From sequence record KC237308: a stretch of 5,475 nt of DNA. The stretch is one strand, 5' to 3'. A model generated the notes under the pieces. The model was not told the origin of the DNA, did no database searches, and saw only the letters and a program-made list of their open reading frames with translations. Positions within the stretch are counted from its first letter, which is position 1. Every line of letters starts with the position of its first letter. Source of the DNA: Enterobacteria phage ID204 Moscow/ID. Both the position numbers and the translations under genes were made by a program. Shown one piece after another: positions 4-4,467 of this stretch.

Positions 4-33
4 TTGACACAACCATAACTACATATCTATTAT
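4..33 (+). promoter_or_regulatory. Candidate sigma70 promoter for gene A (pA): -35 TTGACA at 4..9, 18-nt spacer, -10 TATTAT at 28..33
   Basis: Seen in sequence: exact TTGACA hexamer and a 5/6 match to TATAAT with 18-nt spacing. From memory, phiX174 has a TTGACA in the equivalent H-A intergenic position. The -10 assignment is inference; CTATTA at 27..32 with a 17-nt spacer is an alternative. Confidence 0.45.
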
Positions 34-34
34 G

Positions 35-59
35 CCTCCAAATCATCGGAGGCTTTCTT
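35..59 (+). promoter_or_regulatory. Stem-loop CCTCC (35..39) / GGAGG (48..52) with an 8-nt loop, followed by a pyrimidine-rich tract CTTTCTT; it sequesters the gene A Shine-Dalgarno and may be the readthrough terminator after H
   Basis: Seen in sequence: perfect 5-bp inverted repeat whose 3' arm is the GGAGG Shine-Dalgarno 9 nt upstream of the ATG at 62. From memory, phiX174 has the same arrangement (CCTCCAAATCTTGGAGGCTTTTTT before the A start). The regulatory or terminator role is inference. Confidence 0.4.
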
Positions 60-61
60 AC

Positions 62-1723
62 ATGCAACAAGCTAGTGACTTCTACAACAAACCACATATC
101 GACGCTATAAAACCACTCGTTGAAACCGCTGGTATGTCTGTGCTCTCTCAATCTCCAAACCTCCGTATCTGGAAACAGGTAAATTCTCGCATCAAACTTC
201 TGGAAGAAATTCTCGCTCATTACACCAATGGTATACGCCGTGACGACAACGGCGACTTCTGGATGAATCCTAACTCTCAACTCGCAACTACAATTGCCTA
301 TCGTGCCCATCAAAAAGGACACAATCCAAAACTTATTCAATACCCTGATACATTCACTCTGGATGACATTATCCGTAAAAAGCCATTACCACAAAACGCC
401 CCTGACGAATTAAAACTCTCCGATGAAATCGGGGAAGACTATCGCCTTACAATCATCTCTCTAATCGAAGAAATGCAAGAAATCTACGACGTGCTCGGAC
501 AACTTGATATTAATAACACTATAGACCACAAACCTATCGGTAACGCCCACTGGAATCTACTCTATGAAAAACCTGTCTATAAACACTGGTATGAACTGGT
601 ATCAAAACGACCCCTTAAATCAATCAGAGACGACTACAACTATGCAAAGGCTAAGGGTATCAAAGATGAGTGCTCGAAAATCCTTGAGGAATCTACTATG
701 AAATCACGTAGGGGCTTTACCGTTCAAAGATTAATGAATGCTATGCGTACCGCTCACACTGAGGGCTGGTATGTTGTATTCGATACTCTTACTCTAGCCG
801 ATGACCGCTTAAAGGACTTCTATGATAACCCCAATGCTCTTCGTGACTACTTTCGTGATATTGGTCGCATGGTTCTCACTGCCGAGGGTCGTTCTGTGCA
901 TGATTCATCTGCGGACTGCTATCAGTACTTTTGTGTGCCTGAGTATGGCACCCAGCACGGCCGTCTACATTTTCACGCAGTGCACCTTATGCGCACACTT
1001 CCTCTGGGTTCTATCGACCCTAACTTTGGTAAGCTGGTGCGTACTAATCGGCAAATAAATAGCTTGCAAAACACATGGCCTTATGGTTACTCTATGCCCA
1101 TCGCGGTTAGATACTCCCAAGATGCGTTCTCACGCGCTGGCTGGCTCTGGCCTGTTGATACAAAGGGTGAACCCCTTAAAGCTACCTCGTATATGGCTGT
1201 CGGCTTCTACGTCGCTAAATACGTTAACAAAAAATCAGATATTGACATGGCCTCTAAAGGTCTAGGGAATAAAGAATGGAACAATTCACTCAAAACCAAA
1301 ATCAACCTGTTGCCCAAGAAAATCTTTCGCATCAGAATGTCCCGCAACTTCGGAATGAAGCTCCAGTCAATGAGTCACCTCTCAGCGGAAACACTCATTC
1401 AACTGACCCAAGTGGGTTACGACGTGACCCCGTTCAACAACATCTTGAAGCAGAACGCCAAGAAAGAGCTCAGATTGAGGCTGGCAAAGAAATCTGTCGC
1501 CGACGTTTTGGAGGCGCAACCTGTGACGACCAATCTGCTAAAATTCATGCGCAATTTGACCCGTCAAATCGGAGTGTCCAGCCTACAGAGTTTTATCGCT
1601 TCAATGACAACGAAATTAACAAGTATGGATATTTCTGATGAAACCAAAAACTACGTTGATACTTCAGGAATTGCTTCTACTCACTTACGAATTAAATCGA
1701 AGTGGACTGCTGGCGGAAAATGA
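62..1723 (+). CDS. A: Replication initiation protein A (HUH rolling-circle endonuclease), 553 aa
   Basis: The translation aligns along its whole length with phiX174 gpA as I recall it (for example the C-terminal block ...KSKWTAGGK). The HUH motif HFHAVH is encoded at 968..985 and the active-site tyrosines of YVAKYVNKK at 1208..1210 and 1220..1222. I chose the ATG at 62 because it follows GGAGG (48..52) at 9-nt spacing and matches the position of the phiX174 A start. The ORF track's ATG at 32 is in frame but has no Shine-Dalgarno and lies inside the predicted -10 element. Stop TGA at 1721..1723. Confidence 0.93.
500..529 (+). other. Viral (+) strand origin of rolling-circle replication, 30-nt core recognised and nicked by protein A; predicted nick between G506 and A507
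   Basis: Seen in sequence: CAACTTGATATTAATAACACTATAGACCAC, which matches the phiX174 origin 30-mer as I recall it. It lies inside gene A, encoding ...[10 protein letters not shown]..., as in phiX174. The nick position is taken from established knowledge of phiX174 gpA cleavage. Confidence 0.85.
698..1723 (+). CDS. A*: Protein A* (N-terminally truncated A, from an internal in-frame start), 341 aa
   Basis: In-frame ATG at 698 (MKSRRGF...) preceded by GAGGA at 686..690 with 7-nt spacing. Position and length (341 aa) match the phiX174 A* start as I recall it. Whether this start is used is inference by homology. Confidence 0.75.
1276..1638 (+). CDS. B: Internal scaffolding protein B, 120 aa, overprinted inside gene A in an alternate frame
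   Basis: ORF-track translation MEQFTQNQ...[15 protein letters not shown]...[16 protein letters not shown] aligns with phiX174 gpB (120 aa) as I recall it. A purine-rich AGGGA lies at 1264..1268 upstream of the ATG. Stop TGA at 1636..1638. Confidence 0.92.
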
Positions 1724-1790
1724 TGAAATTCAATCTCAACTTAAAGAATTCGAGAAGCTCTTACTTCGTCACCTTTCGCCATCACCTTAA
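1638..1790 (+). CDS. K: Protein K (small non-essential protein), 50 aa, overlapping the end of A and the start of C in a third frame
   Basis: Not in the ORF track (too short). Hand translation from the ATG at 1638 gives [50 protein letters not shown], with stop TAA at 1788..1790. It matches phiX174 gpK ([31 protein letters not shown]...) as I recall it. The ATG shares its A with the stop codon of B (TGATG). Confidence 0.8.
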
Positions 1791-1974
1791 CGTCTTGGCA
1801 AAGACTGACGCCCTCGACGAGGAAAAATACCTAAACATGCTAGGTGCTCTCCTCAAGGACTGGTTCCGGTATGAAGAGCATTTCGTACATGGTAAACAAT
1901 CAATGCTTGACTTATTAAATGAACGTGGACTATTATCCACATCAACAACCAACCCAAAAGGAAATACAAAATGA
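1720..1974 (+). CDS. C: Protein C (switch from RF replication to ssDNA synthesis and packaging), 84 aa
   Basis: Translation [58 protein letters not shown]... matches phiX174 gpC as I recall it. The ORF track begins at a GTG at 1702; the ATG at 1720 overlaps the A stop as ATGA, the same arrangement as in phiX174. Stop TGA at 1972..1974. Confidence 0.88.
1907..1936 (+). promoter_or_regulatory. Candidate sigma70 promoter for the D-E-J-F-G-H late transcript (pD): -35 TTGACT at 1907..1912, 18-nt spacer, -10 TATTAT at 1931..1936
   Basis: Seen in sequence. It lies inside gene C about 35 nt upstream of D, in the same relative position and with the same architecture as the phiX174 pD region as I recall it (TTGACA ... 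GCGTGGATTACTAT). Activity is inferred. Confidence 0.5.
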
Positions 1975-2426
1975 ATTCTAACGAATCTGCTGTTGCTTTC
2001 GCTACTGCTCTTGCATCTATCAAGCTCATCCAAGCTTCATCTGTGCTGGACCTGACCGAAGACGACTTCGACTTCCTAACCCGTGACCGTGTATGGATTG
2101 CTACCGACCGCTCCCGTGCTCGCCGCGCTATTGAGGCCTGCGTATATGGTACATTGGACTTTGTCGGATACCCTCGCTTTCCTGCTCCTGTTGAATTTAT
2201 TGCTGCCGTCATTGCTTATTATGTTCATCCCGTTAACATCCAGACAGCATGTCTTATTATGGAAGGCGCCGAATTCACCGAAAATATTATCAATGGTGTT
2301 GACCAGCCAGTTAAGGCCGCTGAACTATTCGCTTTTACCCTGCGTGTACGCGCCGGAAACACTGACCATGTTACACATGCAGAAACTAACGTACGTGAAC
2401 AATTACGTGCTCAAGGAGTAATGTAA
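1971..2426 (+). CDS. D: External scaffolding protein D, 151 aa
   Basis: Translation is near-identical over long blocks to phiX174 gpD as I recall it (TALASIKLIQAS.VLDLTEDDFDFLT...WIATDRSRARR...EACVYGTLDFVGYPRFPAPVEFIAAVIAYYVHPVNIQTACLIMEGAEFTENIING). AAAGGA lies 8 nt upstream. The ATG overlaps the C stop as ATGA. Stop TAA at 2424..2426. Confidence 0.96.
   Translation: MNSNESAVAFATALASIKLIQASSVLDLTEDDFDFLTRDRVWIATDRSRARRAIEACVYGTLDFVGYPRFPAPVEFIAAVIAYYVHPVNIQTACLIMEGAEFTENIINGVDQPVKAAELFAFTLRVRAGNTDHVTHAETNVREQLRAQGVM
2146..2421 (+). CDS. E: Lysis protein E (MraY inhibitor), 91 aa, overprinted inside gene D in the +1 frame
   Basis: Internal ATG at 2146 within the 2083..2421 ORF gives MVHWTLSDTLAFLLLLNLLLPSLLIMFIP..., matching phiX174 gpE (MVRWTLWDTLAFLLLLSLLLPSLLIMFIP...) as I recall it, including the transmembrane helix and the proline at position 21. 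GAGG at 2133..2136 lies 9 nt upstream. Length of 91 aa equals phiX174 E. Confidence 0.9.
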   Translation: MVHWTLSDTLAFLLLLNLLLPSLLIMFIPLTSRQHVLLWKAPNSPKILSMVLTSQLRPLNYSLLPCVYAPETLTMLHMQKLTYVNNYVLKE

Positions 2427-2506
2427 TGGCTAAAGGCTCTCGTCGGCGTTCGCCGTCCCGCTCTAAAGGTGCTCGCCTCTGGTATGTTGGCGGCACACAA
2501 TTCTAA
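2426..2506 (+). CDS. J: Small basic DNA-binding/packaging protein J, 26 aa
   Basis: Not in the ORF track (too short). Hand translation gives MAKGSRRRSPSRSKGARLWYVGGTQF, with stop TAA at 2504..2506. The C-terminal GARLWYVGG motif matches phiX174 gpJ as I recall it. AGGAG at 2414..2418 lies 7 nt upstream. The ATG shares one nucleotide with the D stop (TAATG). Confidence 0.88.
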   Translation: MAKGSRRRSPSRSKGARLWYVGGTQF

Positions 2507-2512
2507 TCTTCT

Positions 2513-2534
2513 AGGGGCTTCGGCCCCTCTATTT
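2513..2534 (+). terminator. J-F intergenic hairpin AGGGGC-UUCG-GCCCCU (2513..2528) followed by CTATTT; candidate partial terminator and mRNA-stabilising element
   Basis: Seen in sequence: perfect 6-bp G/C-rich stem closing a UUCG tetraloop, immediately after the J stop. The same GGGGCTTCGGCCCC element is present after J in phiX174 as I recall it. Terminator function is from established knowledge of phiX174, not tested here. Confidence 0.6.
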
Positions 2535-2545
2535 AAGGATATAAA

Positions 2546-3829
2546 ATGTCTAACGTTCAAACTTCCGCTGACCGCATTCCTAACGACCTTTCTCACCTCG
2601 TCTTCGAGGCTGGCAAAATCGGTCGTTTAAAAACTATCTCTTGGACTCCAGTTGTCGCTGGCGACTCATTTGAAACTGAAATGGTAGGCGCTATTCGCCT
2701 TTCCCCACTTCGTCGCGGCCTTGCCGTCGACTCTCGTGTGGATATCTTCTCTTTCTATATCCCGCACCGCCATATCTACGGACAACAATTTATTGACTTC
2801 ATGAAAGCTGGCGTTAATGCCGCTCCTCTTGCTCCGGTTACCTGCTCCTCTGGCTGGGATTCTGCTGCCTATCTTGGCACTATTCCATCCTCAAACCTCA
2901 AGGTTCCTAAATTCTTACATCAAGGATACCTTAATATTTACAACAACTACTTTAAGCCACCGTGGGATGCTGACCTTACTTACGCTAACCCATCTAATAT
3001 GCCTGAACAGGATTATAAATGGGGCGTTTGTGTCGCTAACTTAAAATCTATCTGGACTGCCCCCTTACCTCCTAACTCTAAAACATCAGAGACTATGACC
3101 ACTGGTGCTACGTCTATTGATATTATGGGCCTGCAAGCTGCTTATGCTAAATTGCACACCCAACAAGAACGTGACTACTTCATGACTCGTTACCGCGATA
3201 TTATGAAAGACTTCGGAGGTCACACCTCCTATGACGGCGATAACCGTCCTCTTCTGCTTATGCGCTCTGAATTCTGGGCCTCTGGCTATGACGTCGACGG
3301 TACTGACCAAACCTCTTTAGGTCAGTTCTCCGGTCGCGTCCAACAAACATTCAATCACAAGGTACCTCGCTTTTATGTACCTGAACACGGCGTTATCATG
3401 ACTCTCGCCGTTACTCGCTTCCCTCCGACTCATGAAATGGAGATGCACTATCTTGTCGGCAAGGAATCTTTAACCTATACCGACCTCGCTTGCGACCCTG
3501 CTCTTATGGCTAACCTTCCTCCGCGCGAAGTATCCCTTAAGGAATTCTTCCACTCCTCGCCGGACTCTGCTAAGTTCAAAATTGCCGAAGGCCAATGGTA
3601 TCGTACGCAGCCTGACCGCGTCGCATTCCCCTACAACGCACTTGACGGCTTCCCTTTCTACTCTGCTCTGCCGTCTACTGACTTAAAACAACGTGTCCTA
3701 GTTAACACTGATAACTACGACGAAATCTTTCAGTCTATGCAACTCGCACACTGGAATATGCAAACTAAATTTAATACTACCGTCTATAGACATATGCCTA
3801 CGACTCGTGATTCAATCATGACGTCATAA
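2546..3829 (+). CDS. F: Major capsid protein F, 427 aa
   Basis: Translation aligns along its whole length with phiX174 gpF as I recall it (MSN.QT...DLSHL...PLRRGLA.DS.VDIF.FY.PHRH.YG...QGYLNIYNNYFK.PW...TSIDIMGLQAAYA.LHT.QERDYFM.RY...LPTTRDSIMTS), and the length is identical at 427 aa. AAGGA at 2535..2539 lies 6 nt upstream. Confidence 0.97.
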   Translation: MSNVQTSADRIPNDLSHLVFEAGKIGRLKTISWTPVVAGDSFETEMVGAIRLSPLRRGLAVDSRVDIFSFYIPHRHIYGQQFIDFMKAGVNAAPLAPVTCSSGWDSAAYLGTIPSSNLKVPKFLHQGYLNIYNNYFKPPWDADLTYANPSNMPEQDYKWGVCVANLKSIWTAPLPPNSKTSETMTTGATSIDIMGLQAAYAKLHTQQERDYFMTRYRDIMKDFGGHTSYDGDNRPLLLMRSEFWASGYDVDGTDQTSLGQFSGRVQQTFNHKVPRFYVPEHGVIMTLAVTRFPPTHEMEMHYLVGKESLTYTDLACDPALMANLPPREVSLKEFFHSSPDSAKFKIAEGQWYRTQPDRVAFPYNALDGFPFYSALPSTDLKQRVLVNTDNYDEIFQSMQLAHWNMQTKFNTTVYRHMPTTRDSIMTS

Positions 3830-3840
3830 AGCCTATAACG

Positions 3841-3878
3841 TGACAGGGGGAAAAATTTTAATTTTTCGCCCCCTGTCA
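3841..3878 (+). other. Long imperfect hairpin in the F-G intergenic region (arms TGACAGGGGG / CCCCCTGTCA with an internal AAAAATT / AATTTTT sub-stem); candidate terminator and complementary-strand priming or primosome-assembly site
   Basis: Seen in sequence: 10-bp outer stem 3841..3850 with 3869..3878, plus an inner 7-bp A/T stem and a CG bulge. The phiX174 F-G intergenic region has a homologous hairpin around the same AAAAATTTTAATTTTT core as I recall it. The function is inferred from phiX174/G4 knowledge. Confidence 0.55.
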
Positions 3879-3927
3879 GGTTGAACAAGCGCAAGCGCGT
3901 TAGCTACTTAACTTAAGGACTACTACT

Positions 3928-4458
3928 ATGTTTCAATCTTACGTCTCTAATCACACTTCACCTCAAACTAATACAACTATCTCCGGCTCTAAAACCCCTG
4001 CCGCTCTGGCTCCTATTTTATCTACGCCAGAGCTTAGCAGGGCTACTTTAGCCGGAACTATTACTACTACTGCGTTAGCTTCATACGCTGGTCTAGCACA
4101 TATTGTGCGCATTGACCACACTAACGCTACTAATCATCAATTACTAACTATCGCAACCTCTCTCGCGTCTGCCTCGCCTATTACTGCGATGGCTGTACGC
4201 TTCGAGGTTGCTTCGGGTACGGTTCCTACCGCTATCCCTTCTACAGCTACTTACTATCCAATTCAAAATATCATCTCCGGTACCTTCTTATCTGTCCGAG
4301 ATGCCGTTACTATCGAGACTATTCCAACCACTTCGTCAAATGACGTCTATGCTGGTGTCTTTATCTTCTCTAATGCATGGGTTGCTGGCCCTGTCTCTGG
4401 CGTTATCTCTGTCAATCAGGTAAACCGTGAGGTTTCTGTACTCCAACCTCTTAAATAA
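3928..4458 (+). CDS. G: Major spike protein G, 176 aa
   Basis: Translation MFQSY.S...VRFE..S..VPT..P....YYP......G.F..V.D.VTI...P.......VY.G.......WV.......SVNQV..E...LQPLK aligns with phiX174 gpG (175 aa) at the conserved positions I recall. AAGGA at 3915..3919 lies 8 nt upstream. Stop TAA at 4456..4458. Confidence 0.93.
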   Translation: MFQSYVSNHTSPQTNTTISGSKTPAALAPILSTPELSRATLAGTITTTALASYAGLAHIVRIDHTNATNHQLLTIATSLASASPITAMAVRFEVASGTVPTAIPSTATYYPIQNIISGTFLSVRDAVTIETIPTTSSNDVYAGVFIFSNAWVAGPVSGVISVNQVNREVSVLQPLK

Positions 4459-4467
4459 GGAACTACT

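What the first reader, a model, noticed from the sequence alone, without database searches (positions are those of the whole stretch)
2426..2506. J protein is only 26 aa and K is 50 aa: lineage signature pointing away from phiX174 toward G4/alpha3-like phages
phiX174 J is 38 aa and K is 56 aa as I recall. Here J lacks most of the N-terminal basic extension but keeps the C-terminal GARLWYVGG.QF core that docks to the capsid, and K ends six residues early at TAA 1788..1790. Together with an A protein of 553 aa (phiX174 513 aa, G4 about 554 aa as I recall), this suggests a G4-like genome. J length affects DNA packaging density and capsid charge balance, so it is a functional difference and not only a taxonomic marker.
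Basis: partly seen in the sequence, partly recalled or inferred. Interest (0 to 1): 0.35.

Follow-up and report, generated by a model that had tools for sequence, protein, structure and literature searches.

The report
Short J typical, short K private
The window is the already deposited G4-like coliphage ID204: its 26-residue DNA-packaging protein J is the normal short form of that group, while its 50-residue K protein is a small sublineage-specific truncation and not a sign of G4 ancestry.

Summary
J is 26 aa (2426..2506), K is 50 aa (1638..1790, TAA at 1788..1790) and A is 553 aa (62..1723).

The window is a complete Bullavirinae genome. All ten proteins tested match GenBank entries of Enterobacteria phage ID204 Moscow/ID (Gequatrovirus talmos). 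ID2 is the nearest record in the phage collection, at about 96% outside gene G.

- **J length:** it is a real clade marker. It is 38 aa in phiX174-like phages, 25–26 aa in G4-like and 24 aa in alpha3-like phages. The short forms lack an internal 12-residue block, not the N-terminus. The KGARLWYVGG core is invariant.
- **K length:** it is not a marker. K is 56 aa in phiX174, G4, ID2 and ID18, and 53 aa in alpha3. The 50-aa K comes from one G→T change at 1788 (Glu51→stop), which is silent in the overlapping gene C.
- **Who shares the short K:** only one other genome found, an independent uncultured relative 98.3% identical to the window.
- **Likely effect:** K is dispensable in phiX174 and its tail is the least conserved part, so the truncation is most likely near-neutral.

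The "G4-like" conclusion is right, and the K argument for it is wrong. This is already known biology and of low interest.

The parts
2426..2506 (+). Gene J: 26-aa DNA-binding/packaging protein, MAKGSRRRSPSRSKGARLWYVGGTQF (7 K+R, no D/E)
   Evidence: Same coordinates as annotated J of ID2. Pfam PF04726 53.5 bits against a cut-off of 30. Exact match to GenBank AGC34606.1 and AAZ48954.1.
2413..2418 (+). AAGGAG Shine-Dalgarno for J, 7 nt before the ATG. The J ATG overlaps the D stop codon (TAATG at 2424..2428).
   Evidence: read directly; D annotated as 1971..2426 in ID2
2513..2528 (+). GC-rich hairpin (GGGGCU-UCGG-CCCCU region) in the J-F intergenic spacer. Probable transcript-end or stability element; function inferred only.
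   Evidence: -11.7 kcal/mol, z = -1.4, not significant on its own; no consensus terminator found
1638..1790 (+). Gene K, 50 aa, truncated by 6 residues relative to the 56-aa form
   Evidence: PF12283 64.8 bits, profile positions 1-49 of 56. Exact match to GenBank AGC34602.1 'protein K' of ID204.
1788..1790 (+). Premature K stop TAA. G1788T relative to ID2 (GAA Glu51 -> TAA). The same base is the third position of C codon 23 (CTG -> CTT, Leu, silent).
   Evidence: shared by L007
1791..1808 (+). Former K tail, now untranslated in the K frame (would read RLGKD, then the ancestral stop at 1806..1808); still coding for C
   Evidence: read-through translation
62..1723 (+). Gene A, 553 aa (A* from 698); GGAGG at 48..52
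   Evidence: exact match to AGC34599.1
1720..1974 (+). Gene C, 84 aa; overlaps the 3' part of K and constrains it
3906..4465 (+). Mosaic block containing gene G (3928..4458, 176 aa). Only 41% aa identical to ID2 G, while the rest of the genome is ~96% nt identical. Not part of the J/K finding, but it co-occurs with the short K in the ID204-type sublineage.

Best explanation
The window is the complete genome of coliphage ID204, a Gequatrovirus talmos isolate whose closest sequenced relative is ID2.

**J.** Its J gene encodes the normal short form of the microvirus DNA-packaging protein. This form has one N-terminal basic cluster and the invariant C-terminal KGARLWYVGG-x-Q-F/Y segment. By homology with the solved G4, alpha3, PJNS002 and phiX174 virions, the C-terminal segment sits in a groove on the inside of coat protein F. 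The basic part contacts the ssDNA, and 60 copies enter with the genome and replace scaffolding protein B. Compared with phiX174 J, it lacks an internal 12-residue proline-rich/basic block. J therefore brings about +420 charges per virion instead of +720. This is a fixed difference between genera, not a peculiarity of this genome.

**K.** The 50-aa K is a separate and much younger event. A single G-to-T change at 1788 is silent in the overlapping, essential gene C and turns K codon 51 into a stop. It removes a six-residue hydrophilic tail that is the least conserved part of a non-essential protein. It is most likely neutral or nearly so, and it has been inherited within a small ID204-type sublineage.

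**Shown here:** coordinates, identities, the clade distribution of lengths, the causal base change and its silence in C, and its presence in a second independent genome.

**Inferred:** the molecular role of J (from homologues and literature) and the near-neutrality of the K truncation.
For: - **Identity of the genome:** all 10 proteins are exact matches to ID204 entries AGC34599-AGC34609, on a contig of 5475 nt. Taxonomy is Gequatrovirus talmos. ID2 is the best DNA hit.
- **J:** it is identical in nucleotide and amino-acid sequence to ID2 J and is a member of PF04726. Solved homologues are 1m06, 1gff, 9k3n and 1rb8/2bpa.
- **J length by clade:** 38 / 25-26 / 24 aa in 22 genomes or loci. The gap is a single internal 12-column block, and K14, G15 and R17-G23 are invariant.
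- **J structure:** a 26-residue J has been resolved contacting F and ssDNA, and the 38-residue form is described as having 12 extra residues.
- **K change:** G1788T gives E51* in K and L23L in C. K is 56 aa in ID2, FL76, L005, G4, ID18 and phiX174.
- **K singleton:** only ID204 has a 50-aa K among homologues in 5.8 billion proteins.
- **Second genome:** L007 (Logan SRR6872429, circular, 5475 nt) is 98.3% identical and has the same stop. Its 91 differences include 74 transitions and are mostly synonymous in A, F and H, so it is an independent natural relative.
- **K tail:** the last six columns are the least conserved in the family, and lengths of 53 and 54 aa also occur.
- **Constraint in the overlap:** in the K/C overlap, 5 of 7 substitutions are silent in C and change K.
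- **Dispensability:** nonsense variants in phiX174 K are tolerated and no K mutation impaired fitness in a complete mutagenesis (bioRxiv 10.64898/2026.07.25.740675).
Against: - Neutrality of the K truncation is not demonstrated. K is reported to affect burst size (Gillam et al. 1985, as cited, and the RefSeq note). The laboratory assay could miss such effects, and about 90% of K mutations were excluded there because they also alter overlapping genes.
- The short K co-occurs perfectly with the divergent G allele in the two genomes where both can be seen. A functional link cannot be excluded with n = 2.
- The role of J is taken from homologues. No experiment or structure exists for this J, although the identical protein occurs in ID2.
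- Whole-protein net charge of F is the same (-4) in the window and in phiX174. I therefore found no evidence of simple charge compensation, and the effect of the lower J charge on this virion remains open.
Confidence: 0.9

Rival explanations
1. One reading: both the 26-aa J and the 50-aa K are genus-level signatures of G4/alpha3-like phages.
For: The J half holds. The genome is indeed G4-like.
Against: K is 56 aa in G4, ID2, ID18, FL76 and L005, the same as in phiX174, and 53 aa in alpha3-like phages. The 50-aa form is a singleton cluster in the protein collection.
Confidence: 0.03
2. The K stop is a sequencing or assembly error, or a laboratory-passage mutation in the ID204 stock, and the natural phage has a 56-aa K.
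For: It is a single base change in a non-essential gene. Only one cultured isolate carries it.
Against: An independently assembled circular genome from another sample (L007) has the same T at 1788. It differs from the window at 91 other sites, in a pattern typical of natural divergence. T1788 is one of 100 fixed differences between ID204-type and ID2-type genomes.
Confidence: 0.04
3. The K truncation is adaptive and functionally linked to the replaced spike gene G. For example, it might tune burst size or timing in the host range conferred by the new G.
For: Short K and the ID204-type G co-occur in both genomes where both regions are available. The K span shows somewhat more change than the background (6.4% against 3.6-4%).
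Against: There are only two genomes, and they also share about 100 other fixed differences, so the co-occurrence is explained by common descent. The K tail is variable across the family. K nonsense mutants are tolerated in phiX174. No known interaction links K and G.
Confidence: 0.05

Closest known systems
Escherichia phage ID204 Moscow/ID (GenBank proteins AGC34599-AGC34609), Gequatrovirus talmos
   Same: All ten proteins tested are identical, including the 26-aa J and the 50-aa K. The contig length is 5475 nt. The window is this phage.
   Different: Nothing detected at protein level. The nucleotide record itself was not in the searchable phage collection, so base-for-base identity was not checked.
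Escherichia phage ID2 Moscow/ID/2001 (NC_007817), type isolate of Gequatrovirus talmos
   Same: Same gene order and coordinates up to 3900. Nucleotide identity is about 96% outside G. J is identical, and A is 553 aa.
   Different: K is 56 aa (GAA, not TAA, at 1788). G is 179 aa and only 41% identical. The genome is 5486 nt.
G4 protein J (25 aa; structure 1GFF) and alpha3 protein J (24 aa; structure 1M06)
   Same: They are short, single-cluster basic J proteins with the same internal 12-residue gap relative to phiX174 and the same KGARLWYVGG core.
   Different: There are 1-2 residue length differences. The window's RRSPSRS stretch resembles alpha3 (RRSPSRR) more than G4 (RRSGGKS).
phiX174 protein J (38 aa; structures 2BPA/1RB8)
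   Same: Same family (PF04726), same C-terminal core, and the same genomic position between D and F with the TAATG overlap.
   Different: It has an extra internal SGARPGRPQPLR block and 12 basic residues against 7.
phiX174/G4 protein K (56 aa; Pfam PF12283)
   Same: The conserved N-terminal region ([15 protein letters not shown]) and the LSPS motif are retained. The gene position overlapping A and C is the same.
   Different: It lacks the last six residues (ERTGKD in ID2) because of E51*.

Membership tests
Microvirus J protein (Pfam PF04726) | Profile HMM score above the curated gathering threshold | tested here: met
   53.5 bits against a cut-off of 30, full length 1-26
Microvirus J protein (Pfam PF04726) | Very small, strongly basic N-terminal part with no acidic residues, and a conserved hydrophobic C-terminal segment KGARLWYVGG-x-Q-F/Y | tested here: met
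   7 K+R and 0 D+E; K14, G15 and R17-G23 invariant in the 7-sequence alignment
Microvirus J protein (Pfam PF04726) | Gene lies between D and F, with its start overlapping the D stop | tested here: met
   TAATG at 2424..2428; same layout as annotated ID2 and phiX174
Microvirus J protein (Pfam PF04726) | 60 copies packaged with the ssDNA, with the C-terminus bound in a groove of coat protein F | not testable with these tools
   Inferred from solved homologues 1gff, 1m06, 9k3n and 2bpa and from the description
Genus Gequatrovirus (G4-like), species G. talmos | Closest whole-genome similarity to G4-like phages, specifically ID2, and not to phiX174-like or alpha3-like phages | tested here: met
   96% to ID2 over 91% of the query and about 85% to other G4-like phages. 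Global identity is 92% ID2, 81-83% G4/ID18, 68% phiX174 and 61% alpha3. NCBI lineage.
Genus Gequatrovirus (G4-like), species G. talmos | Nucleotide identity to the type isolate above a species threshold (95% is the usual phage criterion, from my own knowledge) | tested here: inconclusive
   96.4% outside the G block but 92.4% over all aligned columns because of the replaced G gene. NCBI nevertheless files it under G. talmos.
Genus Sinsheimervirus (phiX174-like) | 38-aa J with two basic clusters; about 5386-nt genome; 513-aa A | tested here: not met
   J 26 aa, genome 5475 nt, A 553 aa, 68% nt identity
Genus Alphatrevirus (alpha3-like) | About 6.0-6.3 kb genome, 24-aa J, 53-aa K, high similarity to alpha3 | tested here: not met
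   5475 nt, 61% nt identity, protein identities of 29-77%
Bacteriophage protein K (Pfam PF12283) | Profile HMM score above the gathering threshold | tested here: met
   64.8 bits against a cut-off of 25
Bacteriophage protein K (Pfam PF12283) | Full-length 56-residue protein as in phiX174 and G4 | tested here: not met
   50 aa; profile positions 1-49 of 56 matched; E51*

The most novel reading that the evidence does not exclude
The Glu51-stop in K is a naturally fixed, stably inherited truncation of an overlapping gene. It was produced by a change that is silent in the essential partner gene C, and it marks an ID204-type sublineage that also carries a replaced spike gene G. If the truncation were adaptive, or a first step towards loss of K, it would be a natural example of how gene overlap lets the less constrained frame decay. 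It would also offer a handle on the still obscure function of K.
Probability: 0.08. Interest if true: 0.35.

Novelty: already known. Interest (0 to 1): 0.1.

Why it matters
It matters little beyond correct bookkeeping. The phage, its 26-aa J and its 50-aa K are already deposited and annotated. The split between short and long J among the phiX174, G4 and alpha3 groups is long established, with structures for both forms.

The useful outcome is a correction. J length (with A length) is a valid quick marker of genus. K length is not. The short K is a recent single-base event confined to ID204 and one uncultured relative.

The short K does offer a small natural experiment. It suggests that the last six residues of K are dispensable in the wild. 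It also illustrates that, where K and C overlap, selection on C dominates.

Tried and rejected
- **Upstream or alternative J start:** rejected. There are in-frame stops immediately upstream, and 2426 is the first start codon.
- **Exact-pattern scans for more genomes with the K stop:** IMG/VR returned only ID2. The first JGI metagenome scan returned nothing. The second returned one 19-mer hit in a 123-kb contig (L025) with no other similarity to the window, so it is a chance match.
- **Exhaustive HMMER search of K against 1.84 billion representatives:** uninformative for K length. Clustering at 50% collapses true K proteins. The six hits I inspected were all phiX174-type K sequences extended or fused to unrelated sequence, which I read, from my own recognition of the motif, as control reads fused to adapter-derived sequence; the other ~97-160-aa hits at phiX174-level identity probably have the same origin.
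- **L008 (Logan SRR6872423):** it has the ID204-type G and the 26-aa J but ends before the K region, so it gives no information on K.
- **Literature on ID204:** a full-text search for 'ID204' found nothing relevant. Sackman & Rokyta 2013, Hafenstein & Fane 2002 and Rokyta et al. 2006 are not held. My recollection that Sackman & Rokyta 2013 describes ID204 as a natural G-gene recombinant is therefore unverified.
- **Charge compensation by coat protein F:** whole-protein net charge is -4 in both the window and phiX174. This crude test gives no support and cannot address the inner surface specifically.
- **Consensus terminator scan around J and an Rfam scan:** nothing found.

Full report
**What the window is.** The 5475-nt window has the canonical Bullavirinae gene order A/A*/B/K/C/D/E/J/F/G/H on the + strand.

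- Megablast against 50,697 phage records finds 569 microvirus records. The best are ID2 Moscow/ID/2001 (96.2% over 91% of the query) and FL76/FL68 (95.3%). Other G4-like phages follow at about 85%, and phiX174-like and alpha3-like phages at 60-80%.
- An exact-sequence look-up shows that all ten proteins tested (A, B, K, C, D, E, J, F, G, H) are identical to GenBank proteins AGC34599-AGC34609 of 'Enterobacteria phage ID204 Moscow/ID'. These sit on a contig of 5475 nt.
- NCBI taxonomy places that isolate in Gequatrovirus talmos.
- The window is therefore a known, annotated isolate that is simply absent from the searchable phage collection.

**Checking the observation.**

- J is the 26-aa ORF 2426..2506, MAKGSRRRSPSRSKGARLWYVGGTQF. 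Its ATG is the first start after an in-frame stop and overlaps the D stop as TAATG. It is preceded by AAGGAG at 2413..2418. ID2 has J annotated at exactly these coordinates.
- K is 1638..1790, 50 aa, ending at TAA 1788..1790.
- A is 553 aa from ATG 62, the start annotated in ID2.
- The recalled reference values are right. In phiX174, J is 38, K is 56 and A is 513 aa. In G4, J is 25, K is 56 and A is 554 aa. In alpha3, J is 24, K is 53 and A is 494 aa as annotated.
- J and K both pass Pfam's curated thresholds: PF04726 at 53.5 bits and PF12283 at 64.8 bits. K matches only profile positions 1-49 of 56.

**J length as a lineage marker.** I extracted J from 22 genomes or loci: references, relatives found through the D protein in IMG/VR, assembly contigs and Lilleto.

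| Group | J length |
|---|---|
| phiX174-like | 38 aa |
| G4-like | 25-26 aa (G4 25; ID18, ID2 and ID204 26) |
| alpha3-like | 24 aa |
| Lilleto | 28 aa |
| PJNS002 (structure 9k3n) | 26 aa |

- In the alignment, all short forms share one internal 12-column gap opposite phiX174 SGARPGRPQPLR. The N-terminal M-x-K-basic start is kept, and K14, G15 and R17-G23 are invariant.
- J alone does not separate G4-like from alpha3-like phages. It is 73% identical to G4 J and 77% to alpha3 J, and the RRSPSR stretch is alpha3-like.
- The whole genome and A length do separate them.

**How J works (inferred from homologues).**

- Solved virions exist for alpha3 (1m06), G4 (1gff), PJNS002 (9k3n) and phiX174 (2bpa/1rb8), all with J chains homologous to this one.
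- The PJNS001/PJNS002 study describes the basic J inserting into a groove of the capsid protein. In that study the 38-residue form has 12 additional residues, and the 26-residue form contacts ordered ssDNA through Lys3, Arg7, Arg17 and Tyr20.
- Arg7, Arg17, Tyr20 and Lys3 are all present in the window's J.
- Earlier work is summarised in a paper held here: mutant or foreign J proteins alter attachment and biophysical properties of phiX174 virions (citing Hafenstein & Fane 2002, Bernal et al. 2004 and Hafenstein et al. 2004, which I could not read directly).
- Numerically, 60 copies of the window's J carry +420 charges for 5475 nt (0.077 per nt), against +720 for 5386 nt in phiX174 (0.134 per nt). 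Whole-protein net charge of F is -4 in both.
It applies to the whole genus and not to this genome in particular.

**K is a different story.**

- K is 56 aa in phiX174 and also in G4, ID2, ID18, FL76, the ID2-type assembly contig L005 and the IMG/VR G4-like loci. It is 54 aa in Lilleto and 53 aa in alpha3-like phages. A 50-aa K therefore does not point towards G4 or alpha3.
- Relative to ID2 the stop is a single G→T at 1788 (GAA Glu51 → TAA). That base is the third position of codon 23 of the overlapping gene C, where CTG→CTT leaves Leu unchanged.
- Among K homologues in a 5.8-billion-protein collection, only the ID204 entry is 50 aa.
- It is nevertheless not an error. An assembly contig from an unrelated run (Logan SRR6872429, L007) is circular with a 30-nt terminal overlap and a 5475-nt unit. 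It is 98.3% identical to the window, has the same G allele, and has an identical 50-aa K.
- Its 91 differences include 74 transitions and are mostly synonymous in A (21 of 24), F (29 of 39) and H (5 of 6). All reading frames are intact. This is what natural divergence looks like.
- T1788 is one of 100 fixed differences separating ID204-type genomes (window, L007) from ID2-type genomes (ID2, FL76, L005) outside gene G.

**Why the truncation is probably tolerated.**

- The six lost residues (ERTGKD in ID2) fall in the least conserved columns of the K alignment, and natural length variants exist.
- In the K/C overlap, 5 of 7 ID2-to-window substitutions are silent in C but change K. In the K/A overlap, 3 of 4 are silent in K and change A. 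The conserved N-terminal half of K is thus protected, while its tail absorbs changes permitted by C.
- In a complete mutagenesis of phiX174, nonsense variants are lethal in every protein except K, and no K mutation reduced fitness in that assay. The authors caution that about 90% of K mutations were excluded because they also hit overlapping genes.
- RefSeq notes and Gillam et al. 1985, as cited there, report a burst-size effect of K. A subtle cost or benefit therefore cannot be excluded.

**Rivals.**

- A sequencing or laboratory artefact is unlikely given L007.
- An adaptive link between the short K and the replaced G gene is not excluded. It rests on two genomes that share ancestry, and there is no known K-G interaction.

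**Verdict.** The overall inference (G4-like, not phiX174-like) is right and rests soundly on J and A. The K argument is wrong, and the description of the J difference needs refinement. Everything here is already in public records and the literature. The only mildly new point is that the K truncation is shared by an independent uncultured genome and arose through a C-silent substitution.

Noticed in passing
window 3906..4465 (gene G 3928..4458 and its ribosome-binding region): Sharp mosaic block. G is only 41% aa identical to ID2 G, while the flanks are about 96% nt identical, with 0 differences in 3653..3905. No G in the phage collection is closer than 56% (WA14/ID18). The same G type occurs in two Logan contigs, one ENA contig and one JGI contig. 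This looks like natural replacement of the spike gene by horizontal transfer from an unsampled lineage.
   Followed up: partly
window 2299..2613: A 315-nt run is identical to ID2 and covers the D/E 3' ends, J, the J-F spacer and the start of F. Background divergence is 3.6%, and the expected number of such runs is about 1e-3. Runs of similar position occur against FL76 and L005. This suggests either very strong constraint on the region or a recent recombination or sweep.
   Followed up: partly
window 3841..3878 (F-G intergenic region): A long, near-perfect hairpin (GACAGGGGG...CCCCCTGTC). The 103-nt region folds at -33.4 kcal/mol with z = -4.45. It is conserved in ID2 and ID18 but does not align with G4's annotated complementary-strand origin and primer region. 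It may be this clade's equivalent origin or terminator structure.
   Followed up: partly
window 32..61: The A reading frame is open from an upstream ATG at 32 (563 aa). The annotated start at 62 has the GGAGG at 48..52. G4 and ID18 annotate a start one codon earlier, at 59.
   Followed up: no
proteins P0072-P0220 (hits): The representative protein library contains 287 hits, most of them about 97-160 aa, made of phiX174 K fused to what I recognise as translated sequencing-adapter sequence (e.g. RSEERFSRNAETDLVCRLLLEKK); six were inspected. Similarly, the D-protein cluster contains fused 'proteins' attributed to fungi and helminths. These are phiX174 control-DNA contamination in public assemblies.
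   Followed up: partly
L022 (Escherichia phage Lilleto, MK629529): J (28 aa) and K (54 aa) reading frames are present but not annotated in the deposited record, which lists only 6 CDS.
   Followed up: no
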